Shown here: piece after piece, positions 1 through 40,561 of the stretch
How the letters are laid out: each line of letters begins with the position of its first letter
How positions within the stretch are numbered: the stretch's first letter is position 1
DNA from: Deltaproteobacteria bacterium
GTDB lineage: Bacteria; Desulfobacterota; Desulfomonilia; UBA1062
Assembly (NCBI GenBank): GCA_016929755.1
Contig: JAFGIF010000260.1
Location: forward strand, 1-51,347
Length of the DNA stretch: 51,347 nt
Reading direction: 5' to 3'
Notes under the pieces: generated by a model
The model's database searches: none
Seen by the model: only the letters and a program-made list of their open reading frames with translations
What the model was told of the DNA's origin: nothing
Program-made: the position numbers and the translations under genes

Positions 1-219
1 GGCGGAGACCAATTCTATGAGGAAGACAACAGCGATATTTACGATGACTGCTCCGGCGGTTACGACCCGCATACCAACGTCGATATTATCCTGGGATATA
101 AATTTAGCCACTACCAACTGTCACTGAGAGTCAACAACGTCAGCGATAACAAATACTGGGAGGGAACATCCGAAAATCCCGGCCGCACCTTTATGGCGAA
201 GGTAAGTGCCACTTTCTAG
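1..219 (+). CDS. TonB-dependent outer-membrane receptor, C-terminal fragment (5' end outside window)
   Basis: Frame 1 is open from the window edge to TAG at 217-219. The translation ...ILGYKFSHYQLSLRVNNVSDNKYWEGTSENPGRTFMAKVSATF ends in a terminal Phe after alternating hydrophobic residues, the usual last beta-strand of TonB-dependent receptors. It is followed by exbB-exbD-tonB. Confidence 0.6.
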   Translation, partial: GGDQFYEEDNSDIYDDCSGGYDPHTNVDIILGYKFSHYQLSLRVNNVSDNKYWEGTSENPGRTFMAKVSATF

Positions 220-242
220 AATAGTTTTTGTCTTTAAAGCAG

Positions 243-284
243 ACGCCCTGAATTGCATACTTGCAATTCAGGGCGTATTTATTT
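243..284 (+). terminator. Rho-independent terminator downstream of the receptor gene
   Basis: Perfect 15-bp inverted repeat ACGCCCTGAATTGCA (243-257) / TGCAATTCAGGGCGT (262-276) with the 4-nt loop TACT, followed by ATTTATTT (277-284). Confidence 0.8.
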
Positions 285-314
285 AAGCAATACTAAACAC
301 AACAAGGAGTTCGT

Positions 315-872
315 ATGGAATGGCTGGATAAAAGCGGCGTGGTCGGATACATCCTGGCGGGAATCTCGGTTGTTACCCTCGCTGTCTTTCTCGAACGGTT
401 TTTCATGCTGCAACTGGAACGCTACCGGATAAAAAAAGGCGCCGGAATCATGGCAAAGATAAAAATGCTGATCGACGACAATTTCGGAATGAACATATCC
501 CGGCTGGAAGATCTGGTCTCTTTCAGGGCTGAAGAGGAAATCGAACGGATCTCATCCGGGATCGGACTGATCCGGTTGTCTTCCGCGGTCTCACCCCTGC
601 TGGGCCTGCTCGGAACCGTTCTGGGGATGATCGAGTCCTTCAAACAGGTATCCGAAATGGGCGGAAGCGTGAAACCGGCGGTTCTGGCTTCCGGCATCTG
701 GGTGGCACTACTGACGACTGCCGAAGGTCTCGTGATTGCAATAACCGCCTTTTTAATGCACCACTACCTGCAGTTCGTGGTATCCAGGATCGGTAAATAT
801 ATAATTCGCGAGGCGGATAAACAGATCATCGGAGTTCAAAATGATTCGGCTGAATCGCAACCACAAAAATGA
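315..872 (+). CDS. exbB: MotA/TolQ/ExbB proton-channel family protein
   Basis: 185 aa with three hydrophobic segments. The C-terminal half (LLGLLGTVLGMIESF ... GIWVALLTTAEGLVIAI) is typical of ExbB/TolQ. AAGGAG lies 5 nt upstream of the ATG. exbD and tonB follow. Confidence 0.85.
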   Translation: MEWLDKSGVVGYILAGISVVTLAVFLERFFMLQLERYRIKKGAGIMAKIKMLIDDNFGMNISRLEDLVSFRAEEEIERISSGIGLIRLSSAVSPLLGLLGTVLGMIESFKQVSEMGGSVKPAVLASGIWVALLTTAEGLVIAITAFLMHHYLQFVVSRIGKYIIREADKQIIGVQNDSAESQPQK

Positions 873-1233
873 TGCTTCGTCCACAATTGAAATCACCCCG
901 CTGGTGGACGTTGTTTTCCTGCTGCTGATCTTTTTCCTGCTGACGGCGACTTACTTCCATCCTTCCATGGACCTGACACTGCCTGAAGCCGAATCAGCAA
1001 CCCATCAGGAACACGAAGAGCCCATCACCATTGCCATTTCAGAGTATGGCGAGATCGAGATCAACAACGTTAGCGCAACCCTGGAAGACATTGCCCGCAT
1101 TCCAATAAATTCTCCGGTGCTGATCCTGGAAGATAAAACCGGGCCCTATGGGACTTTCATTGAAGTACTCGACACCCTTCGGATCAGTGGAATCGAAAAA
1201 ATATCCATAGTAACCGATGAAAAAACTGAGTAG
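841..1233 (+). CDS. exbD: ExbD/TolR biopolymer transport protein
   Basis: 130 aa with an N-terminal TM segment carrying the IEITPLVDVVFLLLIFFLL motif characteristic of ExbD/TolR. Overlaps exbB by 32 nt. Confidence 0.85.
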   Translation: MIRLNRNHKNDASSTIEITPLVDVVFLLLIFFLLTATYFHPSMDLTLPEAESATHQEHEEPITIAISEYGEIEINNVSATLEDIARIPINSPVLILEDKTGPYGTFIEVLDTLRISGIEKISIVTDEKTE

Positions 1234-1861
1234 AATTATCTTATTCCTGGCGATTTCAATAATCGTTCATATGAGCATCACCCAACTGCTGGAATCTACC
1301 CAAACCAAACAAACGCCCTATCAGAGCGTTGCGGTCTCCATCATTAAAGCGGTCAAACCGGAAGAGGAAATACCCGAACCACCTCCTCCGCCTCCACCTC
1401 CCCCAAAGCCGAAACCCAAGCCTAAGCCGAAACCAAAACCCGAGCCTATCCCGGAACCCGAACCGGAACCAGTCCCACAACCAGAGGTGGTTGAATCACC
1501 ACCTTCTCCTGAGCCCGTCATTATGGCTGAACCTCAGGCAACGCCGCTCCCACAGCCTGCGCAGGTGAATCATGCCAGGTTAAAAAAGGATTACCGATCT
1601 CTGGTGGAATCCATTATCCGTAATAATATCTATTATCCTCAAAGCGCCCGCAGACGCAATATTCAAGGTACGGTCGAAGTCCTGTTCACTATTAACGAGC
1701 ACGGAGAAATCTCGGATATCAAGATCACCAGATCATCGGGAAGCTCTCTTCTTGACAAGGCCGCTATCTATACCCTTAAAAAATGCACCTTCCCTCCGCC
1801 TCCGTCCGATCCGATGGAATATCCGATACCGATAACATACAAACTGATGGAGGCATCTTGA
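1217..1861 (+). CDS. tonB: Energy transducer TonB
   Basis: 214 aa with an N-terminal membrane anchor and a Pro-rich spacer PPPPPPPPPKPKPKPKPKPKPEPIPEPEPEPVPQPE (about nt 1375-1480). The C-terminal TonB domain reads YPQSARRRNIQGTVEVLFTINEHGEISDIKITRSSGSSLLDKAA. Overlaps exbD by 17 nt. Confidence 0.85.
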   Translation: MKKLSRIILFLAISIIVHMSITQLLESTQTKQTPYQSVAVSIIKAVKPEEEIPEPPPPPPPPPKPKPKPKPKPKPEPIPEPEPEPVPQPEVVESPPSPEPVIMAEPQATPLPQPAQVNHARLKKDYRSLVESIIRNNIYYPQSARRRNIQGTVEVLFTINEHGEISDIKITRSSGSSLLDKAAIYTLKKCTFPPPPSDPMEYPIPITYKLMEAS

Positions 1862-1865
1862 GGAT

Positions 1866-2675
1866 ATGCAGTCTATGATTGAAATCAGCACGTTGGAATT
1901 TTCATATATCAATAAAACCTCGGTATTTACTGATATATCATTTTCACTCCCAGCAGGAAGACTGTGTGCACTTATGGGTGGCAACGGTTCGGGTAAAACA
2001 ACTCTGCTGAAATGCATTGCCGGGCTCCTGGTTCCTTCGCATGGAACCATCTCAATTGCGGGAACCCGGATCAGCAAACTTACGAAACGACAACGTGCCC
2101 GCCGGATGAGTATGGTTCCCCAGGAACATTCAACCGTATTCCCCTACACGGTTGAAAACATGGTGCTGATGGGCAGGGCTCCCTATATCGACGCATTCGC
2201 CATGCCCGGAGAGGATGATCTGTCCGTTGCGTATCAGGCCATGCAGGAAGTCGGCATCGAACATCTGGCCCACAAAATGTACTCTCAGATCAGCGGGGGC
2301 GAACGGCAGCTGGTCCTGATCGCCCGGTCTTTGGCCCAGAACACCCCGATCATGCTCCTGGATGAACCTACCAGCCACCTCGACTATCGCAACCAGATTC
2401 TGACCATGTCAATCGTCAGACGCCTGGTCAAGGAAAAGGGCTTTCTGGCTCTGATCGCCACTCACGATCCTAACCATGCCCTGTTCTTTGCCGATACGGT
2501 AATCATCCTGCACCAGGGGCGTATCCTGAGAAACGGTCCATCCGGAGAGGTGATAAATCGCGACAATATCAGCACGGTCTACGGCATTGAAGTACAGGAA
2601 ATCCGGGATCATGATAAAATCAGATGGATCATGCCGGATGTGGAAATCCTCAATCACAGGAGAGATCCGCAATGA
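1866..2675 (+). CDS. ABC transporter ATP-binding protein (FepC/FecE/BtuD type)
   Basis: Walker A GGNGSGKTT, ABC signature ISGGERQ and Walker B IMLLDEPTSHLD. The start could instead be the ATG at 1875. Confidence 0.9.
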   Translation: MQSMIEISTLEFSYINKTSVFTDISFSLPAGRLCALMGGNGSGKTTLLKCIAGLLVPSHGTISIAGTRISKLTKRQRARRMSMVPQEHSTVFPYTVENMVLMGRAPYIDAFAMPGEDDLSVAYQAMQEVGIEHLAHKMYSQISGGERQLVLIARSLAQNTPIMLLDEPTSHLDYRNQILTMSIVRRLVKEKGFLALIATHDPNHALFFADTVIILHQGRILRNGPSGEVINRDNISTVYGIEVQEIRDHDKIRWIMPDVEILNHRRDPQ

Positions 2676-3703
2676 TTCGAGGCCGACGCTTGTGCATGCT
2701 GATACTCCCAGTGGCGCTGTTTGTGATCCCGGCCTGTCAGCCAGTACAGTCCAAAGGAGAAACCCACGCCACGAGAGTCATAACCGATATGACAGGCAGA
2801 CAGGTACAGATCCCGGGCGAGGTCAGACGGGTTGTTACCGCCATGTACCCCATCGCCACCCAGCTAATGTTCCTGGTGAGTGCCCAGGAGAGCCTTGTGG
2901 GTATATCGGATTATGACATTAACGATGTCATGCTGCGTATCTATCCTCCTATGAAAGACATTTACCGTCCGGCGCGCTCTAATGGCGGGGAAATTTCGGT
3001 TGAAGAAATCATCAAGATGAAGCCGGATGTGGTCTTCTGCCATATGCGCAACGCCCGCGAGCATACCTTGAAAAACCTTGACATCGCCAGGGTGATTCTG
3101 AGACTTGAAAATCCCGAAGCCCTCATGCAGGGTATACTTCTGGTCGGCGACATCATGAACAGAACCGAGCAAGCCTGCAAGGTAGTGCATTACTACCGCT
3201 CGAAACTCGATTATATCAAACGCCGCACCGCCGGAATCAACCCGAAAAAAACAGTCTATTTTGCCGGTCCGGCCAAGCTCAGCACCGCCGGGGGGGACTT
3301 CTTCCAGAATTTTGTGATCGAGTATGCCGGTGGAATAAATGTCGGCCGGGAAGGTCGCGGCGGCTGGTGCTCGATTTCCATCGAACATCTCCTGGCCTGG
3401 AACCCGGACTGCATCTTCATCGGCAACTACGGCACGGCATCCATTGAAAGTTTTACAGGCGATCCCCGGCTCAGAGATATCTCGGCCGTGAAAAAAGGGG
3501 ATGTCTACATGTCGCCATACTACATTGGTTCCTGGGATGTACCCACGCCTGAATCCGTACTGGGTATTATGTGGCTGGCAAACATCCTTTACCCTGAAGC
3601 CGTTGCCTTTGATATGGCCAAAGAGATGAACGAGTTTTATACATTCTGCTACGGGTACACCCCTAAGCACGATGAGATTGCCCGCGTCCTGGGGGAAAAA
3701 TGA
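2672..3703 (+). CDS. ABC transporter periplasmic substrate-binding protein (Fe-siderophore/haem/corrinoid class), probable lipoprotein
   Basis: I chose the ATG at 2672 (ATGA overlap with the ATPase stop) rather than the ORF-track start at 2624. The N-terminus MIRGRRLCMLILPVALFVIPAC looks like a signal peptide ending in Cys. The body resembles the Peripla_BP_2 family and is a paralogue of 6713-7675. Confidence 0.85.
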   Translation: MIRGRRLCMLILPVALFVIPACQPVQSKGETHATRVITDMTGRQVQIPGEVRRVVTAMYPIATQLMFLVSAQESLVGISDYDINDVMLRIYPPMKDIYRPARSNGGEISVEEIIKMKPDVVFCHMRNAREHTLKNLDIARVILRLENPEALMQGILLVGDIMNRTEQACKVVHYYRSKLDYIKRRTAGINPKKTVYFAGPAKLSTAGGDFFQNFVIEYAGGINVGREGRGGWCSISIEHLLAWNPDCIFIGNYGTASIESFTGDPRLRDISAVKKGDVYMSPYYIGSWDVPTPESVLGIMWLANILYPEAVAFDMAKEMNEFYTFCYGYTPKHDEIARVLGEK

Positions 3704-4707
3704 GAAAAGTCCAGCACTACCTTGTCTACCTTATAGTGCTCAATATTTTAATGTTCTGCCTCTCCATGTTTCTGGGCCGGTATCATATTCCCATGGGAGA
3801 GGTTATTAACGCTATTTTCTCACCAATCATAACAAGTGGCTCGGAACCATCACGCATTGTCACAACCGTACTGTTCCATGTGCGCCTGCCAAGAATCCTG
3901 CTGGCAATGCTGATCGGGGCCGGACTTGGAATTACCGGGGCATCCTTCCAGGGCATTTTCAGAAATCCCCTGGTATCGCCCTATATACTGGGGGTCTCCT
4001 CGGGCGGCGGGTTCGGCGCAGCCCTGGCGATTCTGCTCTTTAACAGCCCCATGGCAATACAGATCCTGGCTTTTGTATTCGGCATGCTGGCCGTGGGAAT
4101 TACCTATTTTATCGCCCTTCTCGGGTACCGGATTTCAACCTATACCCTGGTCCTGGCCGGCATTGTAGTCGGATCATTTTTTACCGCCCTCATTTCACTA
4201 TTGAAATATGTGGCCGACATTTACACCAAACTACCGGCCATCGTATTCTGGCTCATGGGTTCCCTGGCAGCGGTGGATATATCCGATATGTTGCGCACAG
4301 GACCAATTATCGCGGTGTGCATAATTGTGCTGATCATGCTCAGGTGGCGCTTCAACATACTCTCTCTTGGCTCTCAGGAGGCCAAAACGCTCGGAATTAA
4401 TACAACGGTACTCTATTTGGTGATCATAACCCTATCCACGGTTATCGCCGCCTCGATCGTTGCCATCGCAGGCATAATCGGCTGGGTCGGTCTGGTGGTC
4501 CCGCACCTGTGCCGCATGATGGTGGGGGCGGATCATGAAAAACTGCTGCCGGCCTCTGCCCTGATGGGTTCGGCCTACATGCTCATGGTGGATGATGTCG
4601 CCCGGACTCTGGTATCACAAGAAATTCCCCTGGGAATCGTAACCGCTATCATTGGTGCACCGTTCTTCGCATATCTGCTGAAACGCCGCCGAGGAGGCAA
4701 ACCATGA
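3700..4707 (+). CDS. ABC transporter permease, FecCD/BtuC family
   Basis: 335 aa and highly hydrophobic. Typical FecCD strings are LPRILLAMLIGAGLGITGASFQGIFRNPLVSPYILGVSSG and GWVGLVVPHLCRMMVGADH. ATGA overlap with the upstream gene. Confidence 0.9.
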   Translation: MRKVQHYLVYLIVLNILMFCLSMFLGRYHIPMGEVINAIFSPIITSGSEPSRIVTTVLFHVRLPRILLAMLIGAGLGITGASFQGIFRNPLVSPYILGVSSGGGFGAALAILLFNSPMAIQILAFVFGMLAVGITYFIALLGYRISTYTLVLAGIVVGSFFTALISLLKYVADIYTKLPAIVFWLMGSLAAVDISDMLRTGPIIAVCIIVLIMLRWRFNILSLGSQEAKTLGINTTVLYLVIITLSTVIAASIVAIAGIIGWVGLVVPHLCRMMVGADHEKLLPASALMGSAYMLMVDDVARTLVSQEIPLGIVTAIIGAPFFAYLLKRRRGGKP

Positions 4708-6716
4708 TTTATCCGCTCTCGACCCTGTATGCCGGATCCGTGGAACAAATCCCGTTCTTCCATTACTACCCAGGGCACAAAGCGCTCATCATCGGCACCT
4801 ACGGCTGTAACCTTGATTGCAAGTACTGCATGAACCAGCATCTGCTCAACGAACCGTCGAACTTCTTCGACCTTGCACCCGCACAGGTCGCTGCAAAGGC
4901 CAAGACAAGCGGGTGCGATCTGATCAGTTTCAGTGCCAATGAACCGGCCGTAAGCTTCGACTATTTCATCGATATCGCCGAGGCCGCCAAAGAGTATGGA
5001 ATTATAACCGGTTGCAGCACAAACGGCCTTTTTAATGACTCCCAACTCGACAAACTCAAAAACAGCATCGCTTTCGCCAATGTAAGCCTCAAGGGACCGT
5101 CCGAACAATTTTACCATGAAATGTGCTCTGCCGGCTCTCCGCAACGGGTGCTTACCACCGTGAACGAATTGCATGCCAACTCTGTCCACGTCGAGGTTAC
5201 CACACCCTATGTGCCCTTGATCACCCCTGACGAAATGTTTTCAATGGCTGAAATGATCGGGAACGTCAGCCCTCACATTCCCTGGCATATCTTCAGGCTG
5301 TTGCCGGAATACAAGCTGACGGACATTGCCCAACCAGGTATCGACGACCTGCTCGAAATGAAAAACCGCGTTCTGAAATACCTTTTGTACATCTACCTGG
5401 AGAATTTCGCCAGTTCGCACTGGGTAGATACCTGCTGCCCGCAATGCGATTCTCTGCTGTTGCAGCGTATCAGCACCCGCGGTTGCGGGGCCCACTTAAT
5501 GAAAATTCAGATAACCGACGGGGCCTGTCCGGTCTGCAGCCGACCCGTGGATATTATCGGCCAAGCCGCGATTGTAGATTTACTCAGTCTGGATGAAGTC
5601 GATCCCCGAACCGGGCTCATTGACGTGGGAGGATGGCAGAGCTACGTTGATATGGGATCCGGGGTTCCCAAAACCGAAGGACAGCAAAGTCCGGCTCGCC
5701 ATATCATTTCAAAACATCCCTATCCCGGAGATATGAATTTCGAGGCCGACCAATGGGTAGTCGATGTAGCCCTCGACATCATCCCCGAGATTAAACCCGA
5801 CCTTATGGTACTGACTTTTTCCCAGCCGTCACTGGTGGGCAGGCATATGCCGGATATAGAAACCTACCGGAGCTTTGTAAACAACACCATATCCGAAGTG
5901 GAACGTTTTATCAGCCAAGCCGCAATGGAGTATCTCATCGTAGGTTTGGGCGATCTGAATGATACCAAGGGCGTCATCAACCTGGAACAACATATCCGGG
6001 GAGCGGCATCGGCTGATGAGGGCATTGCCTGTCTTTACGATTGCACACCCGTAGATGCCGAGCGCGTTAAACAGCTCGAAGGAGTTCAGGCTGTTATAAC
6101 CAGGCAAGAGATGCAAACCCGTCTCGGCCATGCCCTTGATCCGGACATCTTCGGGACATTTTTTGTATTGGCTCACAGCGGTTATCAGTTTCTGGCACTG
6201 TCTTCGAGCAGCAGATATGCCTACCGACAACCGGCCCAGGACACTCGCATACCCGTAATGACATCTCTCGATCGTTCCCCCGGCTCGATCAGGGACATCC
6301 GGGAAATAGCAGGCGAAATCGTAATCAGACAAAAACGCAGACTGGCCCTGATCCTGATCGAAGGCATCGGCTTAAAAACGTTCCCTCTCGATTCACAACC
6401 GGCAGATAATTCAATCAACGGGATTGTCTACAGTTCGACTTTGCTGCAGTACATGGTGATCAGCACCGGTCAGGCGGTGTTTCCGACCTTTTTCGGCTAT
6501 CCCCTCTGGAAAACATCACCATTGGTCAATCCGTTTTCCCGACACACCCCTTTCCTGCAAAGCTGTCTCACCCGGGATATCATTGCAGCAGGCATGAAAT
6601 CCGTGAGTATAGGAAATCGCAGCATTATGACCCACACGGCATTTCCAGCCTCATTGAGCGTCGAATGTCACTGCGCATCCCTGCACAACTACGGTTCTTT
6701 GGAGGTGACTCTATGA
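4704..6716 (+). CDS. Radical SAM enzyme (PflA/AmmeMemoRadiSam-like core plus Cys4 ribbon) fused to an unassigned ~380-aa C-terminal domain
   Basis: CX3CX2C motif GCNLDCKYC (C35/C39/C42, nt 4806-4829). Cys-rich ribbon CCPQC...C...CPVC (residues 244-278, nt 5433-5537). I cannot assign residues ~290-670 to a family. ATGA overlaps on both sides (4704-4707 and 6713-6716). Confidence 0.8.
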   Translation: MIYPLSTLYAGSVEQIPFFHYYPGHKALIIGTYGCNLDCKYCMNQHLLNEPSNFFDLAPAQVAAKAKTSGCDLISFSANEPAVSFDYFIDIAEAAKEYGIITGCSTNGLFNDSQLDKLKNSIAFANVSLKGPSEQFYHEMCSAGSPQRVLTTVNELHANSVHVEVTTPYVPLITPDEMFSMAEMIGNVSPHIPWHIFRLLPEYKLTDIAQPGIDDLLEMKNRVLKYLLYIYLENFASSHWVDTCCPQCDSLLLQRISTRGCGAHLMKIQITDGACPVCSRPVDIIGQAAIVDLLSLDEVDPRTGLIDVGGWQSYVDMGSGVPKTEGQQSPARHIISKHPYPGDMNFEADQWVVDVALDIIPEIKPDLMVLTFSQPSLVGRHMPDIETYRSFVNNTISEVERFISQAAMEYLIVGLGDLNDTKGVINLEQHIRGAASADEGIACLYDCTPVDAERVKQLEGVQAVITRQEMQTRLGHALDPDIFGTFFVLAHSGYQFLALSSSSRYAYRQPAQDTRIPVMTSLDRSPGSIRDIREIAGEIVIRQKRRLALILIEGIGLKTFPLDSQPADNSINGIVYSSTLLQYMVISTGQAVFPTFFGYPLWKTSPLVNPFSRHTPFLQSCLTRDIIAAGMKSVSIGNRSIMTHTAFPASLSVECHCASLHNYGSLEVTL

Positions 6717-7675
6717 AACTTTTGTATCGCATCGGATTTTCAATAGTTTGTTTCATGCTGTTGTATCTGCCTGCCTCACATGCCAGACATATCGTGGACA
6801 TGATGGGCCGCACCGTAGAGGTGCCGGTAAAAATTGAACGGGTCGCATCGCCCTATCGAATCGCAACCGAGATGATCATTACACTCGGAGCTCAGGATAA
6901 ACTGGTGGGAGTCTCCACTGTGCCCGGTGATATCATTAAACATTATTTCCCCGATATAACAAATTTATCCTTAGCCGACAGGCATTCCAGTGTTGAAGAA
7001 TTTCTGCGCATGAAGCCGGACGTGATCTTCACGACCTACTCGCCGGTGGTCGACAAACTGGCACAATCCGGCATCAGTGTATTCTGCATGAAGGTTGAAA
7101 ATCCCGATTCCATGCTTGAAGGGATGCTCATGATCGGTGATGTCCTTAACAAAACAGAACAGGCCCAAAACTTTGCTCGCTATTTCAAAGCCAAACTCGA
7201 TCACATCGAAGCCATGACCAAGGCCATTACACCCAAGAAAGCAGTATATGTTGTCGGACCTAAGATACTTATAACCGTGGGAGGTGACTTTTACCAAAAT
7301 TTTATCGTACAGTATGCTGGCGGAATCAACGTCGCCCGGGATCTCAGGGGAGGGTGGGTACCTGTTTCCCGCGAGCATCTGATCGCCTGGGATCCGGATG
7401 TTTTCATCACCATCGGCTATACGGCCATGGACCCCTCGCAGATTAAAAATGATGCCGGGCTGGCTCCGCTGAAGGCCCTTAAAACCAACGCCATCTACAT
7501 CTTTCCCAGCTATATCGATTCCTGGGATATGCCAACACCGGAATCACTTCTTGCCATCATGTGGCTGGCAAATATTCTGTATCCTGAAAAGGTCAACTTC
7601 GATATGCACAAAGAGGCCCGCGAGTTTTACCTAAAATTCTACGGCAGCTATCCCCAAGAGGTCAGACTCAATTGA
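6713..7675 (+). CDS. Second ABC transporter periplasmic substrate-binding protein (paralogue of 2672-3703)
   Basis: I chose the ATG at 6713 (GGAGGTG upstream, ATGA overlap) rather than 6665. Signal peptide MKLLYRIGFSIVCFMLLYLPASHA. Shares long strings with the first binding protein: GGDF(F/Y)QNF, YAGGINV, RGGW, EHL(L/I)AW(N/D)PD, SWD(V/M)PTPES, MWLANILYPE. Confidence 0.85.
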   Translation: MKLLYRIGFSIVCFMLLYLPASHARHIVDMMGRTVEVPVKIERVASPYRIATEMIITLGAQDKLVGVSTVPGDIIKHYFPDITNLSLADRHSSVEEFLRMKPDVIFTTYSPVVDKLAQSGISVFCMKVENPDSMLEGMLMIGDVLNKTEQAQNFARYFKAKLDHIEAMTKAITPKKAVYVVGPKILITVGGDFYQNFIVQYAGGINVARDLRGGWVPVSREHLIAWDPDVFITIGYTAMDPSQIKNDAGLAPLKALKTNAIYIFPSYIDSWDMPTPESLLAIMWLANILYPEKVNFDMHKEAREFYLKFYGSYPQEVRLN

Positions 7676-8232
7676 GAAATCGCAACACACTGGTTATTCT
7701 GACAGGACTGAGAGGCTGCGGAAAAACAAGCCTTCTGAAAAATCTGATCGAACGCCATGACCTTAATGTCCAGGGTTTTCTGAGCTGCAAGGAATTCAGC
7801 GGCTCTTTGATGACAGGCATCAATCTTGTTGTCCTGCCCGGGAAAACATCCATGCCAATGGCAACCACGACCCCGTTTTCCACCCCGGTTAGCACAGGGC
7901 GGTTTTATTTCTTTTCGGAAACATTCGGGCTTATAGAGCGCCATTTCAATACAATCAGACCCAAGATACCGTTTATTTTCGATGAGTTTGGTCAATTGGA
8001 GATGAGACAGGAGGGCCACTATCCCCTGTTTCAAAAACTCATTGAGAAAAACCATCCGTTGCTGCTGGTGGTACGTAAAGAAATGCTTGAAGAATTTCTG
8101 GCATCTTTGCCACAAGAAACCCTCTTTAACATCTTCGATATGGATGAAATGATTCATCAAGATATTAACAACTGTATGTTGGAATTTCTGGAAAATCCGG
8201 CATCCGCATGTACAACGAACAAGACTTATTGA
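7672..8232 (+). CDS. P-loop NTPase, THEP1/NTPase_1-like
   Basis: 186 aa with Walker A GLRGCGKTS at residues 12-20 and a Walker B-like IFDEFGQLEM, comparable to the IDEIGKME string of THEP1-type NTPases. The only start codon upstream of the P-loop is TTG at 7672, which overlaps the preceding stop (TTGA). Confidence 0.6.
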   Translation: MRNRNTLVILTGLRGCGKTSLLKNLIERHDLNVQGFLSCKEFSGSLMTGINLVVLPGKTSMPMATTTPFSTPVSTGRFYFFSETFGLIERHFNTIRPKIPFIFDEFGQLEMRQEGHYPLFQKLIEKNHPLLLVVRKEMLEEFLASLPQETLFNIFDMDEMIHQDINNCMLEFLENPASACTTNKTY

Positions 8233-26202: not shown

Positions 26203-27081
26203 TCAAAGCCCCCTGGCCCATTCAGGGCGGAGCAAGCCTGATTTTTTATCGCCTAAGGCCATGTCGATCAGCTTTAGAATCTTTTGTTTGTCCTGTGGAA
26301 AATCTCCATGTATCGGGAGATAATTGGATGCGTGCTCTGTGCCGAAATGAGTGCCTTTGAGTTCCAGATCTTCCACAAACCACCTCAACTCCTGAAGGCT
26401 CTGGCGTTTGTCGAGCAACTTGAATCCATCTCCCATGATCTTGGTTTCATACACCTCGCTGAAGTGTCCCAGCATGAGGGTCAAGCAGGAAAGGAAGGAG
26501 GGATTGATCGCATTGACCACCTTGGCCGAATCCTTGGCATGTACAAAACTCCCATCCACGCCGCCCAGCCCGAGCAAAATAATCGTTGAAAGCCTCAATC
26601 CCGCATCCAGGGCCTTGCGGCCGGCCTCGATAATTTCGGCACTGCCGGCCCCCTTGCAGATCCTCTTGAGTAGATCATCATTGCCGGTTTCAATACCCAG
26701 ATAGAGCATGTCCAGTTTTCTCTTCCTGAGTGCCTTAAGGTTACTGATGGTCTTATCCTTGAAATTTGTCGGCCCGGCATAAATACCAACTCGTTCCAGT
26801 GAGCGGAATTTTTCATTAAGCAGTTCAAGTATCCTGATCAAAAATGGGGTTTCAACACCGAGCGCATCACCATCGGCCAGAAAAATCCTCCTGGTATCCG
26901 GTTGCAACCATGCCATTTCCAGCACATCTTTCTCTATCTCTTCCCATTTTCGGACCTGGTAGCGCTTGCTTTTATACATGCCGCAAAAAAGACACCTGTT
27001 CCACGAACAACCGAGCGTAATCTGAAATATCAGGGAATTTGCTTCGGATGGTGGCCTATACAAAGGCATATCGTACTGCAT
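26203..27081 (-). CDS. Radical SAM protein with CX4CX2C cluster motif (paralogue A)
   Basis: RPPSEANSLIFQITLGCSWNRCLFCGMY: C25, four residues, C30, two residues, C33 (nt 26983-27009). Also GIETGND and LLGLGG. Clear paralogue of 29412-30314. Confidence 0.8.
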   Translation of the reverse strand: MQYDMPLYRPPSEANSLIFQITLGCSWNRCLFCGMYKSKRYQVRKWEEIEKDVLEMAWLQPDTRRIFLADGDALGVETPFLIRILELLNEKFRSLERVGIYAGPTNFKDKTISNLKALRKRKLDMLYLGIETGNDDLLKRICKGAGSAEIIEAGRKALDAGLRLSTIILLGLGGVDGSFVHAKDSAKVVNAINPSFLSCLTLMLGHFSEVYETKIMGDGFKLLDKRQSLQELRWFVEDLELKGTHFGTEHASNYLPIHGDFPQDKQKILKLIDMALGDKKSGLLRPEWARGL

Positions 27082-29385: not shown

Positions 29386-29416
29386 TTGACCCAAGTCTTT
29401 AAAAGACCTATATGAT
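29386..29416 (+). promoter_or_regulatory. Candidate promoter with embedded palindrome upstream of radical SAM paralogue B
   Basis: TTGACC (29386-29391). Possible -10 TATATG (29409-29414, 17-nt spacer) or TATGAT (29411-29416, 19-nt spacer). The spacer contains the 13-bp palindrome GTCTTTAAAAGAC (29395-29407). There is no SD before either ATG (29412 or 29421). Confidence 0.3.
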
Positions 29417-30314
29417 TTCTATGCATGTCCCCGAACAACTGGTTATTCGCCCTCCCAGCGAAGCTGCAAGTCTGCTGATTAGAACCGTGCGCGGCTGTAA
29501 CTGGAACCGCTGCCTCTTCTGCGGCATTTACGATCTCTACGGTGTCCCTTATTCTCAGAGAACACCGAAGGAAGTGAAAAATGATATTGATGCCTTTGAG
29601 GCACACTATGGTGACCACTTTGAAACCGCTTTTCTGGGGGATGCCAATCCTATGGATCTGCCCACGGAATTCCTGGTCGATATTTTAACTCACCTGCGCG
29701 TAAAATTTCCGTCTTTGCAGCGGGTTACCGTCTATGGCAGGGCTTCCAGCATATGGAAAAAATCACTCGATGAACTCACCCGAATCCGTAATGCCGGCCT
29801 GGATCGGGTGCATACAGGTATGGAAAGCGGTTCAAACCGGGTTTTAGCTTTCCATAAAAAAGGCTCCAACCAAAAGCAGTTGATAGAGGCGGGACAAAAG
29901 GCACGGGATGCCGGTCTGGAGTTAAGCTACTACTTCCTGCTCGGCCTGGGCGGAAAAACCATGTGGCAGGATCATGTAATCGATTCAGCTAAAGTGATCA
30001 ACCTCGCACGCCCGCATTTCGTCAGGGTCAGACGCTTGTGGATTCATCCAATGTCAAGGCTGATGCAAAAGGTTGACTCCGGGGAGTTTGTTCCTCAGGA
30101 GCCTGAAGGAACCGTGATCGAATTGAAAGATCTGGTCGAAAATCTGGATGCCCCGGGAACCACTTTCGCCTGCGATCACGCCAATAACTATATCCAGGTC
30201 TTCGGCAGACTCAATGATGATAAAAAACATATGCTATCAATAATAAACAACTTCCTGGCCTTGCCACCTGAGAAGCGCACTGCTCACTATAATTCCATTC
30301 CTTCGGTAATCTGA
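29412..30314 (+). CDS. Radical SAM protein with CX4CX2C cluster motif (paralogue B)
   Basis: RPPSEAASLLIRTVRGCNWNRCLFCGIY: C29, four residues, C34, two residues, C37 (nt 29496-29522). Also GMESGSN and LLGLGG. The start may be 29421. Confidence 0.8.
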   Translation: MISMHVPEQLVIRPPSEAASLLIRTVRGCNWNRCLFCGIYDLYGVPYSQRTPKEVKNDIDAFEAHYGDHFETAFLGDANPMDLPTEFLVDILTHLRVKFPSLQRVTVYGRASSIWKKSLDELTRIRNAGLDRVHTGMESGSNRVLAFHKKGSNQKQLIEAGQKARDAGLELSYYFLLGLGGKTMWQDHVIDSAKVINLARPHFVRVRRLWIHPMSRLMQKVDSGEFVPQEPEGTVIELKDLVENLDAPGTTFACDHANNYIQVFGRLNDDKKHMLSIINNFLALPPEKRTAHYNSIPSVI

Positions 30315-38049: not shown

Positions 38050-40371
38050 ATGAGTATTGAGAAACAGCTGCATACCATTACCAGGCCGACACGTTATCTC
38101 GGCAGTGAAATCAACCAGATTGTAAAACCCGCAGAAGAAGTAAGGGTTCGCATTGCCCTGGCTTTTCCGGATGTCTATGAAATCGGGATGTCGCATGCCG
38201 GTATAAAGATCCTCTATCAAATCCTGAATGCCATGCCCGGAGTCTGGGCTCAAAGAGTTTTTGCCCCCTGGCACGACATGGCCGCGGCCCTTAAAGAAAC
38301 GGACACTCCCCTGTTTAGCCTTGAAGAACAGCGACCTCTGCGCCAATTTGATATTCTCGGATTCTCCCTGCTCTATGAACTCTCTTACAGCACCGTAATC
38401 AGAATGCTCAAGCTGGGGCGCATTCCCACCTATGCCGCACAACGAACCAAGGATGACCCCATTGTAATAGCAGGCGGCACCTCCACAGCCAATCCCACCC
38501 CGTACCAGGACTTCTTCGACCTTGTGGCCATAGGTGACGGGGAACAGATCGTTGAGGAAATTGCCCGCATCTGCCTCCAAACCGGGGAGCGTACAGAACG
38601 AATCCTTGCCATCGCCGACCTCTCCGGCATATACCGACCCGGCACCAAAAAAACACCAAGGAGAAGCATCCTGCCTGACCTGGATTCGTACCCGTTTCCA
38701 AACCATCCGGTGCTGCCCAACACATCCATCGTGCATGACCGGCTGGGAGTTGAAGTGGCTCGCGGATGTACCCGGGGTTGCAGGTTCTGCCAGGCCGGTA
38801 TGATTTACCGGCCGTATCGGGAGCGTTCGCTTTCATCGGTAATGAACACTTTCGATAGGGGTCTCAAGGCAACCGGATACGACGAAATCTCCATGCTGGC
38901 GCTGTCCGTGACCGATTTAAGCTATCTGGATTCAATCATGACCTCTCTGTATTGTCCATCCAGAGAGATTTCTGTAGGGATTCCCTCCATGCGGGTCGAA
39001 GGCCTGCCCAAAAGCGTGACGGATCTGCTTTCGTCGGTCAAAAAACCGGGATTCACGCTGGCACCGGAAGCAGCCAGTGAAAAACTCAGAACCATCATCA
39101 ACAAGGGCAATACCGAAGATGATCTGTTTCGAACCGTGCGGTGCAGCCGTGAGTTCGGGTGGAAGTCATTAAAACTCTACTTCATGATCGGTTTACCCGG
39201 CGAGACCGAAGCGGACCGCGTTGCCATCTGTGATTTGTCAAAAAGAATCGCCAGAGAATTCAAAGGCAGGATCACGGTGAGCATATCGGCCTTTATTCCA
39301 AAACCGTTCACGCCCTTCCAGTGGGAATCACAGATATCGCCGGAGAGGCACCAGGTGTGGCTGGATTTTTTCCATCAAAATATTCGCGATCGCCGCATTT
39401 CACTCAAATGGCAGGATCCCCCGTTGACGTTTCTCGAGGGGGTCTTTTCACGTGGTGATTCCAGGCTTGCCAAGGTGATCGTTGAGGCGGAAGAAAATGG
39501 AGCCTATCTGGATGGCTGGGTTGATACGTTCAACTTCAAGGCCTGGCAGGATGCATTTAAAAACAACGGCATAGACCCGAACGAATATCTCGCAGAGAGA
39601 GATCCGCAGCAAAACCTGCCCTGGGAATTTATCGACATGCGCATCAAAAAAGACTTTCTGCTGAAAGAACGCTCTCTGGCCTATGAAATCAGCCCGACTC
39701 CCGACTGCAGGGAAGGCCTCTGCAGCGACTGCGGCACATGTGAGAGCGAGATAGACAATATTGTCAGGAAAAAGGTCAAGCCAATACAGATATTCAAAAA
39801 ACCCGTGACATCACAGAATATACCCTATGTAATCGGGCTTACAAAACATGACGTTCTGAAATTCACAGCCCCCAGTGACTGGGTGGAGATGATCAAGCGC
39901 ACTATCCGCAGAGCACAGCTCCCCGCAGTCTATTCCCGGGGCTACAGCCCCGGCATGAAGCTCAGCCTGATTCCGCCCACATCCTTTGGTATCGAATCTT
40001 CCAGCGAATATTTCCAGTTCGAACTCAGGCAAGAAATCGAACCGGACCTCATTATCTCACGGCTTGGGAAGCATTTGCCCAAGGGCGCCGCAATCTTCGA
40101 GTGCTTCAAAGGGAAGTTGCCAAAGGTCGAAGCGTACATATACAGGCTCAAAAAACCACTCCATCTCACTCTAAAAGTTGATTCCTGTATTGAAAAAGGA
40201 TCTTCGCTGTTAAAGGTTCATGATTACCTTACACAACCCGACGAAAAAACACTCGAAATTCGGTTTATTGAGGGCAGAACACTCTCCCCGATGATGATAG
40301 CCCAATCGTTTGCCAAAGAGCCGCTAATTCCGCAAGATATTACTAAGATCAAGACGATCTTTTGTGAGTGA
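38050..40371 (+). CDS. Radical SAM protein of the TIGR03960 type fused to a DUF2344 (TIGR03936-type) domain
   Basis: The N-terminus ITRPTRYLGSEINQ ... ALAFPDVYEIGMSHAGIKILY and CX3CX2C in ARGCTRGCRFCQAG match my recollection of TIGR03960. The C-terminal ~200 aa (IRRAQLPAVYSRGYSPGMKLSLIPPTSFGIESSSEYFQFEL) resembles DUF2344. The ATG directly abuts the stop of the MBL gene. Confidence 0.8.
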   Translation: MSIEKQLHTITRPTRYLGSEINQIVKPAEEVRVRIALAFPDVYEIGMSHAGIKILYQILNAMPGVWAQRVFAPWHDMAAALKETDTPLFSLEEQRPLRQFDILGFSLLYELSYSTVIRMLKLGRIPTYAAQRTKDDPIVIAGGTSTANPTPYQDFFDLVAIGDGEQIVEEIARICLQTGERTERILAIADLSGIYRPGTKKTPRRSILPDLDSYPFPNHPVLPNTSIVHDRLGVEVARGCTRGCRFCQAGMIYRPYRERSLSSVMNTFDRGLKATGYDEISMLALSVTDLSYLDSIMTSLYCPSREISVGIPSMRVEGLPKSVTDLLSSVKKPGFTLAPEAASEKLRTIINKGNTEDDLFRTVRCSREFGWKSLKLYFMIGLPGETEADRVAICDLSKRIAREFKGRITVSISAFIPKPFTPFQWESQISPERHQVWLDFFHQNIRDRRISLKWQDPPLTFLEGVFSRGDSRLAKVIVEAEENGAYLDGWVDTFNFKAWQDAFKNNGIDPNEYLAERDPQQNLPWEFIDMRIKKDFLLKERSLAYEISPTPDCREGLCSDCGTCESEIDNIVRKKVKPIQIFKKPVTSQNIPYVIGLTKHDVLKFTAPSDWVEMIKRTIRRAQLPAVYSRGYSPGMKLSLIPPTSFGIESSSEYFQFELRQEIEPDLIISRLGKHLPKGAAIFECFKGKLPKVEAYIYRLKKPLHLTLKVDSCIEKGSSLLKVHDYLTQPDEKTLEIRFIEGRTLSPMMIAQSFAKEPLIPQDITKIKTIFCE

Positions 40372-40561
40372 TCCGGAAGTCACCACCTTCAATGGTCCTT
40401 GCTATGGCTTTTATTCATTCCTCCTTTTAACCAAATCAGATCTGATATCTGTTCAGTATGACTCTTTGTTCTATCCCTCTATGACATAAAATTTTGACCA
40501 CGCTTGCTTGAATATGGAAATTTTTACCCTATTTTAAACTGACATGCCAAGGGAGTATATA

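What the first reader, a model, noticed from the sequence alone, without database searches (positions are those of the whole stretch)
1..8232. TonB/ExbBD plus ABC importer locus with an embedded radical SAM fusion enzyme, two binding proteins and a P-loop NTPase
Seen: the locus starts with the receptor tail (1-219), a hairpin terminator (243-284) and exbB/exbD/tonB with 32- and 17-nt overlaps. Six ORFs then follow, joined by 4-nt start/stop overlaps at five consecutive junctions (ATGA at 2672, 3700, 4704 and 6713; TTGA at 7672). Established: Peripla_BP_2/FecCD/FepC-type importers paired with a TonB-dependent receptor carry Fe-siderophores, haem or corrinoids. The anaerobic cargo-processing partners I know are HemN-like ChuW/HutW (haem) and CbiZ (corrinoids), and neither resembles the enzyme encoded here. 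Inference: the radical SAM fusion, the second binding protein and the NTPase are stoichiometrically coupled parts of the uptake system. They may perform an O2-independent step that opens, de-metallates or remodels the imported ligand. I know of no characterised uptake operon with this composition.
Basis: partly seen in the sequence, partly recalled or inferred. Interest (0 to 1): 0.75.

Follow-up and report, generated by a model that had tools for sequence, protein, structure and literature searches.

The report
Molybdenum/tungsten uptake locus with new enzyme
This is most likely a system that pumps molybdenum or tungsten, not iron, haem or vitamin B12, into an anaerobic bacterium, and it carries an undescribed radical-SAM enzyme that travels with such pumps in at least five bacterial phyla.

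Summary
The cargo assignment (Fe-siderophore, haem or corrinoid) is not supported. The permease is closest to MolB of the Haemophilus molybdate/tungstate importer. Both binding proteins fall in the MolA branch.

The 670-aa protein has two halves. The N-terminal half is a PFL-activase/AmmeMemoRadiSam-like radical SAM domain. The C-terminal half is a ~375-aa domain with no Pfam, NCBIfam or PDB sequence match and a remote alkaline-phosphatase-superfamily fold.

A scan of one genome per species confirmed relatives in 192 stretches. In the 78 loci examined:
- the pair is fused in 34 and split into two adjacent genes in 42;
- 66 have a Peripla_BP_2 or FecCD gene within about 9 kb.

In 20 loci the operon starts with a Moco/Tuco riboswitch, and 20 of the 24 aptamers lack the P3 stem (the tungsten-cofactor type). 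Other loci carry MoeA, FmdE, DUF364, a TOBE-tailed ATPase or a LysR/PBP_like regulator.

My reading is a TonB-dependent, MolABC-type Mo/W acquisition system with a conserved, uncharacterised cytoplasmic enzyme acting after import. The chemistry of that enzyme is unknown. The Mo/W link in this window's own clade rests on orthology and gene neighbours, not on a riboswitch.

The parts
1..219 (+). 3' end of the TonB-dependent outer-membrane receptor gene (last 72 codons).
   Evidence: Weak matches to the C-termini of TonB receptor models. It is the end of a 733-aa Plug + TonB_dep_Rec_b-barrel protein in the near-identical contig L001.
243..286 (+). Intrinsic-terminator-like hairpin between the receptor gene and exbB: a 15-bp stem with 8 G-C pairs, a 4-nt loop and an ATTTATTT tail.
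   Evidence: Its function (attenuating read-through into exbB) is inferred.
315..872 (+). exbB (185 aa).
   Evidence: Pfam MotA_ExbB 2e-23.
841..1233 (+). exbD (130 aa); overlaps exbB by 32 nt.
   Evidence: Pfam ExbD 2e-25.
1217..1861 (+). tonB (214 aa) with a Pro/Lys/Glu-rich spacer; overlaps exbD by 17 nt.
   Evidence: Pfam TonB_C 5e-21. The gene caller on L001 starts it 30 nt later.
1866..2675 (+). ABC importer ATPase (269 aa) of the FepC/MolC type, without a TOBE tail.
   Evidence: Pfam ABC_tran 1e-33. NCBIfam haem, corrinoid and FecE ATPase models all score below their cut-offs.
2672..3703 (+). Substrate-binding protein 1 (343 aa), a Cluster A binding protein. The N-terminus reads as a lipoprotein signal (…VIPAC).
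   Evidence: Peripla_BP_2 4e-22. PDB best matches: 4hn9 1e-39, 4ovk 7e-37, MolA HI_1472 6e-27. The lipobox was read from the sequence.
3700..4707 (+). FecCD-family permease (335 aa), MolB-like.
   Evidence: FecCD 2e-87. Best PDB match is HI1471 (MolB, 2nq2) at 5e-75 and 256 bits over the full length, ahead of FhuB 206, HmuU 178 and BtuC 136 bits.
4704..5588 (+). N-terminal half of the 670-aa fusion (aa 1-295). It holds the radical SAM core with C35-x3-C39-x2-C42 and a 4-Cys ribbon (C245, C248, C275, C278).
   Evidence: Radical_SAM 4e-19. TIGR04337 AmmeMemoRadiSam model 135.9 bits, below the 220 cut-off. Invariant cysteines in the 18-sequence alignment. Foldseek best hit is PFL-activating enzyme 3c8f, 2e-9.
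5589..6716 (+). C-terminal half of the fusion (aa 296-670): a new domain family with a remote alkaline-phosphatase-superfamily fold. Invariant across the 31-sequence A4 alignment: P341, W351, Y576, G589, R639, E654. Near-invariant (at least 90 %): D343, E553, H644, C655, G664.
   Evidence: No Pfam, NCBIfam or PDB sequence match. AF2 model pLDDT 89.3, pTM 0.91. Foldseek: phosphonoacetate hydrolase 3szy/1ei6 4e-5 and ENPP6 1e-3, TM 0.35-0.40. Only 111 hits among 1.84 billion representative proteins, fused or standalone at ~380 aa. Conservation.
6713..7675 (+). Substrate-binding protein 2 (320 aa) with a Sec-type signal peptide; 44 % identical to binding protein 1.
   Evidence: Peripla_BP_2 9e-24. 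BLASTP against binding protein 1 gives 2e-92. PDB: 4hn9 4e-40, 4ovk 4e-34, MolA 1e-27 aligned over both lobes.
7672..8232 (+). THEP1-type P-loop NTPase (186 aa) with a TTG start and Walker A motif GLRGCGKT.
   Evidence: NTPase_1 1e-9, above the gathering score; weak DUF2478. Closest PDB entry is Aquifex THEP1 1ye8, 6e-4. Homologous or divergent P-loop genes occupy the same position in L001, L021, L003, L009 and L010-L015.

Best explanation
The locus is a complete outer-membrane-to-cytoplasm acquisition system for molybdenum and/or tungsten in a strictly anaerobic Thermodesulfobacteriota bacterium.

How it would work:
- A TonB-dependent receptor, powered by its own ExbB-ExbD-TonB, brings a scarce Mo/W species into the periplasm. 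The species could be the oxyanion, a thio-form or a small complex.
- Two paralogous MolA-branch binding proteins, one lipid-anchored and one soluble, hand it to a MolBC-type (type II ABC) importer.
- The translationally coupled cytoplasmic radical SAM + alkaline-phosphatase-like enzyme then acts on what has been imported. It would make the metal available to the molybdopterin metal-insertion step (MoeA).
- The THEP1-type NTPase would serve as a clade-specific helper.

Shown: gene content, couplings, homologies, conserved synteny, and Mo/W-responsive control in orthologous loci.

Inferred: the identity of the cargo in this organism, and everything about the chemistry of the radical SAM/AP-like enzyme and the NTPase.
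For: 1. Permease: the best solved relative is MolB (HI1471) at 256 bits over the full length, against 206 for FhuB, 178 for HmuU and 136 for BtuC.

2. Binding proteins: after two structural-genomics proteins of unknown ligand, the best hit for both is the molybdate/tungstate-binding MolA, at 6e-27 and 1e-27. MolA ligand specificity is taken from PMC4031551.

3. Synteny: relatives of the 670-aa protein sit beside Peripla_BP_2/FecCD/ABC genes in 66 of 78 loci. These come from Thermodesulfobacteriota, Bacillota, Spirochaetia, Chloroflexota and Actinomycetota. The two halves are separate adjacent genes in 42 loci and fused in 34.

4. Riboswitch: RF01055 (Moco/Tuco) lies 65-470 nt upstream of the first gene of the operon in 20 loci. 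There are 24 aptamers, 22 of them above Rfam's gathering score. In L006 and L020 the aptamer sits directly in front of fused genes that are 33 % identical to the window protein. Twenty of the 24 lack the P3 stem, the class associated with tungsten cofactor (PMC2408646).

5. TOBE (Mop-type) tail on the importer ATPase in L006, L007 and L020.

6. Same-phylum neighbours: MoeA lies inside the operon in Smithella L030 and in L034, and nearby in L079.
   - L030 reads FmdE - methyltransferase - FecCD - ABC - MoeA - DUF364 - binding protein - rSAM - AP-like - Metallophos - TBDR - ExbB - ExbD - TonB.
   - It has a divergent LysR/PBP_like regulator.

7. DUF364 is present in 19 loci. The literature reports it as conserved next to molybdate/tungstate uptake genes (PMC2954201; bioRxiv 10.1101/2024.03.05.583561).

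8. In L090/L091 the methyltransferase-rSAM-AP-like trio follows three sulfite-oxidase-family molybdoenzyme genes.

9. In Eubacterium limosum, Tuco riboswitches precede two 'Fe ABC-type' transporters, and one of them is induced by W limitation (PMC11725836).
Against: - No riboswitch, TOBE tail, MoeA, DUF364 or FmdE is present in the window itself or in L001. The Mo/W assignment for this clade therefore rests on orthology at 29-54 % identity and on neighbours in related Thermodesulfobacteriota loci.
- The binding proteins resemble two proteins of unknown ligand more than they resemble MolA. The ligand-contact residues of MolA were not compared.
- The receptor's best subfamily model is the haem/haemoglobin receptor family (219 bits, below the 317 cut-off). 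A CcsA-like haem-handling homologue lies upstream in L001.
- Type II importers and TonB receptors usually carry larger ligands than an oxyanion.
- The canonical alkaline-phosphatase metal ligands are not obviously conserved, so no catalytic mechanism can be read from the sequence.
Confidence: 0.6

Rival explanations
1. Metallophore biosynthesis. The rSAM/AP-like pair would build a dedicated Mo/W chelator (a 'tungstophore' or 'molybdophore'), together with DUF364 (a SAM-cyclising enzyme family) and the class I methyltransferase where these are present. The receptor and ABC importer would then take the loaded chelator back up.
For: - DUF364 occurs in 19 of 78 loci and a methyltransferase in 16, next to the pair.
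- The first characterised DUF364 enzyme converts a SAM derivative into an azetidine amino acid (PMC12930334). This chemistry is related to nicotianamine-type metallophore synthesis (my own knowledge).
- A TonB receptor plus a type II importer is the classical architecture for metal-chelate uptake.
Against: - The minimal operons contain no DUF364, methyltransferase or exporter. Examples are S. wolfei L048 (riboswitch, ABC, binding protein, FecCD, rSAM, AP-like) and this window.
- Tight translational coupling to the transporter subunits fits a cargo-handling role better than a secreted-product pathway.
Confidence: 0.15
2. Cofactor or pterin salvage. The cargo would be Moco/Tuco, a dinucleotide form, or a pterin precursor released by other anaerobes. 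The AP-like domain (with NPP-type fold relatives) and the Metallophos enzymes would trim phosphodiester or pyrophosphate groups. MoeA would then re-metallate the pterin.
For: - Riboswitch-controlled TonB/FecCD importers normally carry the riboswitch ligand or its precursor, as with the B12 riboswitch and BtuB/BtuFCD (established knowledge).
- Two kinds of phosphoesterase recur: the AP-like domain and Metallophos in 6 loci.
- MoeA is embedded in some operons.
- The system is found only in anaerobic lineages in this sample, where an oxygen-labile cofactor could persist outside cells.
Against: - Mop-type TOBE tails on the ATPase sense oxyanions.
- The permease is closest to the small-substrate MolB.
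- DUF364 also sits in a type I molybdate ModABC operon in Methanococcus (bioRxiv 10.1101/2024.03.05.583561).
- The role of a radical SAM step in salvage is unclear.
Confidence: 0.12
3. Activase and target. The rSAM domain would not act on the cargo. It would be a maturase or activase that modifies the AP-like domain itself, by analogy with anaerobic sulfatase-maturating enzymes acting on AP-superfamily sulfatases, or with glycyl-radical activases. The modified AP-like domain would be the real catalyst. This rival concerns mechanism only and is compatible with a Mo/W role.
For: - The rSAM half belongs to the PFL-activase/AmmeMemoRadiSam branch, whose known members act on proteins.
- The two halves always occur as a fused or adjacent pair.
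- The full-length model is confident as a single unit, pTM 0.89.
- A conserved E-C…G motif lies in a C-terminal hairpin with a low-confidence loop at residues 659-662.
Against: - No sulfatase C/S-x-P-x-R motif and no RVxG[FYW] glycyl-radical motif was seen by eye in the C-terminal alignments.
- Some loci carry an extra standalone AP-like paralogue without a second rSAM gene.
- There is no direct evidence for any modification.
Confidence: 0.15
4. The system would import an iron chelate, haem or a corrinoid. The Tuco/Moco control in relatives would merely co-ordinate iron or cofactor supply with the production of Fe-S-rich tungstoenzymes, as proposed for E. limosum fetABC.
For: - The Peripla_BP_2/FecCD/FepC families are annotated as iron-complex transporters.
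- The receptor's best subfamily model is the haem receptor family, although below cut-off.
- A CcsA-like gene lies upstream in L001.
- The authors of PMC11725836 read their Tuco-controlled transporters as iron transporters and saw higher cellular Fe on lactate.
Against: - No cobalamin riboswitch or any other Rfam family was found in the window or L001.
- If these aptamers repress when cofactor is bound, as the E. coli Moco element does (PMC2408646), they would shut off iron uptake exactly when tungstoenzymes are being made.
- fetABC1 was induced by W limitation (PMC11725836).
- TOBE tails, MoeA, FmdE and DUF364 are all Mo/W-linked.
- The permease is closest to MolB, not HmuU, BtuC or FhuB.
- No ChuW/HutW or CbiZ-like enzyme is present.
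Confidence: 0.05

Closest known systems
MolBC-A (HI1470/HI1471/HI1472) molybdate/tungstate type II ABC importer of Haemophilus influenzae
   Same: - The FecCD permease is most similar to MolB.
- The Cluster A binding proteins are related to MolA.
- Both are type II importers for a Mo/W species.
   Different: - This locus adds a TonB-dependent receptor with its own ExbBD-TonB, a second binding protein, a radical SAM/AP-like enzyme and a P-loop NTPase.
- The binding proteins are only distantly MolA-like.
- MolBC-A is a low-affinity system (PMC4031551), whereas a TonB-dependent receptor suggests scavenging.
Tuco-riboswitch-controlled 'Fe ABC-type' transporters fetABC1/2 of Eubacterium limosum (PMC11725836)
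   Same: FecCD-type importers placed behind P3-less Moco-family riboswitches. One of them is induced by W limitation.
   Different: - They were published as iron transporters.
- The paper mentions no radical SAM or AP-like partner.
- Sequence relationship to this locus was not tested here.
BtuB + BtuFCD behind a cobalamin riboswitch
   Same: The same architecture: a TonB receptor plus a Peripla_BP_2/FecCD/ABC importer, with cofactor-riboswitch control in relatives.
   Different: - No cobalamin riboswitch is present.
- BtuC and BtuF are much weaker matches than MolB and MolA.
ChuW/HutW anaerobic haem-degrading radical SAM enzymes in haem uptake operons
   Same: A radical SAM enzyme encoded inside a TonB/ABC uptake operon of an anaerobe. 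This is a working analogy for O2-independent cargo processing.
   Different: - ChuW/HutW are HemN-like class C methyltransferases.
- The enzyme here is PFL-activase/AmmeMemoRadiSam-like with an AP-like partner domain.
- The regulatory context is Mo/W rather than haem.
Anaerobic sulfatase-maturating enzyme (anSME) with its sulfatase
   Same: A radical SAM enzyme paired with an alkaline-phosphatase-superfamily protein in anaerobes.
   Different: - anSMEs carry SPASM domains and recognise a C/S-x-P-x-R motif.
- Neither feature is seen here.
ModABC / TupABC / WtpABC type I molybdate and tungstate importers
   Same: - The same inferred nutrient.
- The same regulators in relatives: the Moco/Tuco riboswitch and a TOBE trans-inhibition domain.
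- The same DUF364 neighbour.
   Different: - A different transporter class: type I, with Cluster D binding proteins.
- No outer-membrane receptor and no radical SAM partner.

Membership tests
TonB-dependent uptake system | An outer-membrane receptor with Plug and 22-strand barrel domains, plus ExbB, ExbD and TonB. | tested here: met
   ExbB, ExbD and TonB_C are above the Pfam gathering scores. Only the receptor tail lies in the window. The full Plug + barrel protein is seen in the 99 % relative L001.
Type II ABC importer of the MolBC-A kind | A FecCD-family permease closest to MolB, and a Cluster A binding protein homologous to MolA. | tested here: met
   Permease against 2nq2 (HI1471): 5e-75, the best of all PDB chains. 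Binding proteins against 3psa (HI_1472): 6e-27 and 1e-27, third-best after two proteins of unknown ligand.
Type II ABC importer of the MolBC-A kind | The binding protein binds molybdate or tungstate. | not testable with these tools
   This needs ITC, DSF or ICP-MS on purified binding proteins. The MolA ligand-contact residues were not available for comparison (one search failed).
Moco/Tuco riboswitch regulon | An RF01055 aptamer upstream of the operon. | tested here: not met
   There is none in the window, in L001 or in any Thermodesulfobacteriota locus. It is met in 20 related loci of other phyla.
Radical SAM superfamily | A CX3CX2C cluster motif and a Pfam PF04055 match above the gathering score. 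| tested here: met
   C35, C39 and C42 are nearly invariant. PF04055 scores 69.9 bits against a cut-off of 29.5. Structural match to PFL-AE.
AmmeMemoRadiSam system radical SAM enzyme (TIGR04337) | A score above the curated cut-off, and neighbouring AMMECR1 and Memo genes. | tested here: not met
   135.9 bits against a cut-off of 220. No AMMECR1 or Memo gene appears in the window or in the annotated related loci. It is a related branch, not a member.
Glycyl-radical enzyme activase with its glycyl-radical enzyme | A partner protein with the RVxG[FYW] glycine loop and the 10-stranded barrel fold. | tested here: not met
   The partner domain has an AP-like fold. Its conserved C-terminal Gly lies in an N-x-G-x-hydrophobic context, not RVxG.
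Alkaline phosphatase superfamily | The core alpha/beta fold. | tested here: met
   Foldseek against phosphonoacetate hydrolase gives 4e-5 and against ENPP6 gives 1e-3, both with probability 1.0. TM is only 0.35-0.40 over about 200-235 columns. This is a remote, partial match.
Alkaline phosphatase superfamily | Bimetal site ligands (Asp/His sets) and a Ser/Thr/formylglycine nucleophile. | tested here: inconclusive
   E/D553 and T/S588 lie at plausible positions, but T588 is not invariant. The D-x-x-x-H and D-H positions appear replaced (Q374, G-L-G-D), and a conserved E654-C655 pair is atypical. No model coordinates were available for a superposition.
   No such NCBIfam or Pfam match was found for any ORF of the locus.
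THEP1 / NTPase_1 P-loop NTPases | A Walker A motif and a PF03266 match above the gathering score. | tested here: met
   GLRGCGKT motif. PF03266 scores 38.8 bits against 23.9. The nearest structure is Aquifex THEP1 1ye8.

The most novel reading that the evidence does not exclude
The radical SAM + AP-like pair would be the catalytic heart of a previously unknown, O2-independent pathway by which strict anaerobes assimilate tungsten or molybdenum from the chemical forms that dominate sulfidic habitats. Those forms are thiometalates, or a dedicated SAM-derived 'tungstophore' made by DUF364 and the methyltransferase. The AP-like domain would be an oxyanion/metalate-binding site re-purposed from a phosphoesterase fold. 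Radical chemistry would release or convert the metal for MoeA.
Probability: 0.2. Interest if true: 0.9.

Novelty: new variant of a known kind. Interest (0 to 1): 0.72.

Why it matters
How strict anaerobes obtain tungsten and molybdenum at trace levels, and in sulfidic water where the metals are thiolated, is an open question. These organisms include syntrophs, sulfate reducers, metal reducers and acetogens.

If this reading is right:
- A widespread class of genes annotated as 'iron complex ABC transporter' and 'radical SAM protein / PFL activase' is really a Mo/W acquisition module.
- Outer-membrane TonB-dependent uptake of Mo/W becomes a concrete, testable case.
- A new two-domain enzyme family is tied to the step between import and cofactor metal insertion. 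This family has only 111 hits among 1.84 billion representative proteins.
- The published reading of Tuco-riboswitch-controlled 'iron' transporters should be re-examined.

Cultured carriers make the idea directly testable. They include Syntrophomonas wolfei subsp. methylbutyratica, Solidesulfovibrio alcoholivorans and Desulfuromonas sp. CSMB_57.

Tried and rejected
- **Cobalamin, Fur or haem control.** Rfam at gathering score on the window and on L001, L004 and L006, and at E <= 1 on L001 1000-5700, gave no cobalamin or other riboswitch in the window's clade.
- **Sequence identification of the C-terminal domain.** Pfam at E <= 10, NCBIfam, and PDB profile searches with 11- and 31-sequence alignments gave only chance-level hits, such as PurE at 0.13.
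- **Whole-protein Foldseek.** This reported only the rSAM half. A second model of the C-terminal domain alone was needed.
- **First homologue search.** The word-indexed search returned just 23 clusters and suggested a tiny family. The genome scan and the exhaustive profile search showed a broader family, often split into two genes.
- **ModE operator.** AT-rich TATATA boxes upstream of the receptor gene in 7 related loci resemble ModE half-sites. Their spacing varies from 6 to 14 nt, so I do not claim an operator.
- **ATPase against PDB.** Uninformative.
- **MolA ligand residues.** The structure paper is not held, so the binding-site comparison was not done.
- **Literature.** Searches for this gene combination (Moco riboswitch, radical SAM, FecCD, tungsten, TonB, AmmeMemoRadiSam, DUF2478) found no description of it.
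- **Mo/W genes elsewhere in the window.** tblastn for DUF364, the methyltransferase and further transporter copies found nothing beyond the locus. tblastn for E. coli Mod, Moa, Moe, Mob and Mog proteins found nothing anywhere in the window. The rest of the window is housekeeping.

Full report

- The 4-nt overlaps are confirmed: ATGA at 2672, 3700, 4704 and 6713, and TTGA at 7672. So are the 32-nt and 17-nt overlaps in exbB/exbD/tonB and the 15-bp hairpin at 243-276 with a T-rich tail.
- A 99 %-identical contig (L001) supplies the missing upstream part. It holds a 733-aa Plug + barrel receptor with its own promoter-like region, preceded by a CcsA-like gene and a 245-aa membrane protein.
- The rest of the 51-kb window is housekeeping.

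**The transporter.**

- The permease's best solved relative is MolB (HI1471) of the Haemophilus molybdate/tungstate importer, at 256 bits over the full length. FhuB scores 206, HmuU 178 and BtuC 136.
- The two binding proteins are 44 % identical paralogues. One has a lipoprotein-type N-terminus and the other a Sec signal peptide.
- After two structural-genomics proteins of unknown ligand, their best solved relative is MolA, which binds molybdate and tungstate (PMC4031551).
- The receptor has no close characterised relative.

**The 670-aa protein.**

- Residues 1-295 are a radical SAM domain of the PFL-activase/AmmeMemoRadiSam branch. It has the CX3CX2C motif and a 4-Cys ribbon. It scores below the TIGR04337 cut-off and has no AMMECR1 or Memo neighbours.
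- Residues 296-670 match nothing by sequence in Pfam, NCBIfam or the PDB.
- An exhaustive profile search of 1.84 billion representative proteins found only 111 relatives. They occur either fused (650-740 aa) or as standalone proteins of about 380 aa.
- AlphaFold models are confident: full length pLDDT 86.8 and pTM 0.89; C-terminal domain alone 89.3 and 0.91.
- The C-terminal domain has a remote, partial alkaline-phosphatase-superfamily fold. Foldseek gives phosphonoacetate hydrolase at 4e-5 and ENPP6 at 1e-3, with TM 0.35-0.40.
- Across 31 fused and standalone members, the invariant positions are P341, W351, Y576, G589, R639 and E654. D343, E553, H644, C655 and G664 are conserved in at least 90 %. 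The canonical Asp/His bimetal ligands are not obviously kept.

**Conservation of the neighbourhood.** A scan of one genome per species confirmed relatives in 192 matched stretches; the 80 best, forming 78 distinct loci, were kept. The carriers are anaerobic lineages. They include Syntrophaceae/Smithella, Syntrophorhabdus, Desulfobacterales, Geobacter, Desulfuromonas, Pelobacter, Solidesulfovibrio, Syntrophomonas, other Bacillota, Spirochaetia, Chloroflexota and Actinomycetota.

For the synteny counts I used 78 loci: those of the scan and of the earlier contig look-ups, minus duplicates and the window's own contig.

| Feature | Loci out of 78 |
|---|---|
| Binding-protein or FecCD gene within about 9 kb | 66 |
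| Binding protein + FecCD + ABC all present | 56 |
| rSAM and AP-like halves fused | 34 |
| rSAM and AP-like halves as adjacent genes in different frames | 42 |
| TonB-dependent receptor | 22 |
| DUF364 | 19 |
| Class I methyltransferase | 16 |
| P-loop NTPase-like gene | 9 |

Many of the loci without a transporter are short or truncated contigs. The minimal form is the five-gene Syntrophomonas wolfei operon: riboswitch, ABC, binding protein, FecCD, rSAM, AP-like.

**What the system carries.** The decisive lead was a Moco riboswitch (RF01055, 58 bits) directly upstream of a fused homologue in a Spirochaetia genome.

- *Riboswitch.* Rfam and a covariance model built from six Rfam-validated examples found 24 aptamers in 20 loci. 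All lie on the coding strand, 65-470 nt upstream of the first operon gene. Twenty-two exceed Rfam's gathering score.
- *Aptamer class.* Twenty of the 24 lack the P3 stem. Regulski et al. associate this class with tungsten-cofactor metabolism (PMC2408646).
- *Other Mo/W markers.*
  - Mop-type TOBE tails on the importer ATPase in three loci.
  - MoeA inside the operon in Smithella L030 and in L034, and near it in L079.
  - FmdE-like zinc-finger proteins in 11 loci.
  - A divergent LysR regulator with a PBP_like domain in L030.
  - DUF364, reported as conserved next to molybdate/tungstate transporters (PMC2954201; bioRxiv 10.1101/2024.03.05.583561).
  - Three sulfite-oxidase-family molybdoenzyme genes preceding a methyltransferase-rSAM-AP-like trio in L090/L091.
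- *Published precedent.* In Eubacterium limosum, Tuco riboswitches precede two 'Fe ABC-type' transporters, one of them induced by W limitation. The authors read these as iron transporters (PMC11725836).

**Limits.**

- The window's own clade has no riboswitch, TOBE tail, MoeA, FmdE or DUF364 within the sequence available.
- DUF364 is adjacent in the 50 % relative L009. DUF364 and Metallophos lie about 6 kb downstream in the 54 % relative L010.
- The Mo/W assignment here is therefore by orthology and by same-phylum neighbours such as L030.
- AT-rich TATATA boxes upstream of the receptor gene in seven related loci recall ModE half-sites, but their spacing is irregular, so I do not count them as evidence.

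**Mechanism.**

- *Shown:* a complete TonB receptor, ExbBD-TonB, two binding proteins, a MolB-like permease and an ATPase, translationally coupled to a cytoplasmic rSAM + AP-like protein and an NTPase.
- *Inferred, moderately confident:* the cargo is a Mo/W species.
- *Inferred, low confidence:* the rSAM/AP-like enzyme handles the imported species before MoeA.

Alkaline-phosphatase-fold active sites bind tetrahedral oxyanions, and tungstate, molybdate and vanadate are classical ligands of them (established knowledge). A conserved Arg/His/Glu/Cys/Tyr set could form a metalate site.

Three alternatives remain open:
1. The pair builds a SAM-derived metallophore together with DUF364 and the methyltransferase. 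The first characterised DUF364 enzyme cyclises a SAM derivative (PMC12930334).
2. The system salvages Moco/Tuco or a pterin precursor, with the AP-like and Metallophos enzymes trimming phosphoesters.
3. The rSAM domain is an activase that modifies the AP-like domain, as anSME does for sulfatases. No sulfatase or glycyl-radical motif is present.

Iron, haem or corrinoid uptake is the least supported reading.

**Novelty.** The importer is a variant of a known kind (MolBC-A), extended by an outer-membrane receptor. The rSAM + AP-like pair is an undescribed family. I found no paper describing this gene combination.

Noticed in passing
L001 1718-3204 (immediately upstream of the window's start; also L009/L016, L021; unk245-like in L031): A CcsA-like 'cytochrome c assembly' homologue (PF01578, 1e-8) carries a degenerate WWD motif (LGWSYPFSW). 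It overlaps by 4 nt a 245-aa membrane protein that has no family. The pair sits directly upstream of the receptor gene in several related loci. It may be a further, periplasm-facing part of the system or just a neighbour.
   Followed up: partly
L001 3225-3275; L009, L010, L012, L013, L019 and L021 upstream of the receptor gene: There is a promoter-like TTGACA-17 nt-TTATAT element. AT-rich TATATA…ATATATA boxes overlap or follow the -10 hexamer. They resemble ModE half-sites (ATCGNTATATA-N6-TATATANCGAT), but the spacing varies from 6 to 14 nt.
   Followed up: partly
L030 3293-18155 (Smithella sp. MAG): This is the richest version of the cluster, all on one strand: FmdE/zinc finger, methyltransferase, FecCD, ABC, MoeA, DUF364, binding protein, rSAM, AP-like, Metallophos, TBDR, ExbB, ExbD, TonB. 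A divergent LysR regulator carries a PBP_like (PF12727) domain.
   Followed up: yes
L045, L050, L051, L053, L058, L061 (for example L051 14195-15313): Some Bacillota and Actinomycetota loci carry an additional standalone copy of the AP-like domain gene without a second radical SAM gene.
   Followed up: no
L061 6462-6723, L058 6501-6766, L020 9455-9775: Tandem Moco/Tuco aptamers lie in front of the operon. In L020 one aptamer has a P3 stem and the other lacks it.
   Followed up: partly
L075, L078, L080, L082 (for example Solidesulfovibrio alcoholivorans L078 4968-13629): A variant context lacks FecCD and Peripla_BP_2. It reads TonB-dependent receptor, a 477-aa double ABC ATPase, rSAM, AP-like, methyltransferase, PAP2 phosphatase.
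   Followed up: partly
window 1217-1861 versus L001 6502-7158: The two near-identical strains differ by 12 nt in the Pro/Lys/Glu-rich spacer of TonB. ExbB, ExbD and TonB are 96-97 % identical, against 99-100 % for the downstream genes.
   Followed up: no
window 26203-27081 (-), 29412-30314 (+), 38050-40371 (+): Three further radical SAM genes lie elsewhere in the window. The last has Radical_SAM_N2 and DUF2344 domains. None is adjacent to transport genes.
   Followed up: no
window 40544-43030 (+): A P-type heavy-metal ATPase with YHS and two HMBD domains. It is unrelated to the locus under study.
   Followed up: no
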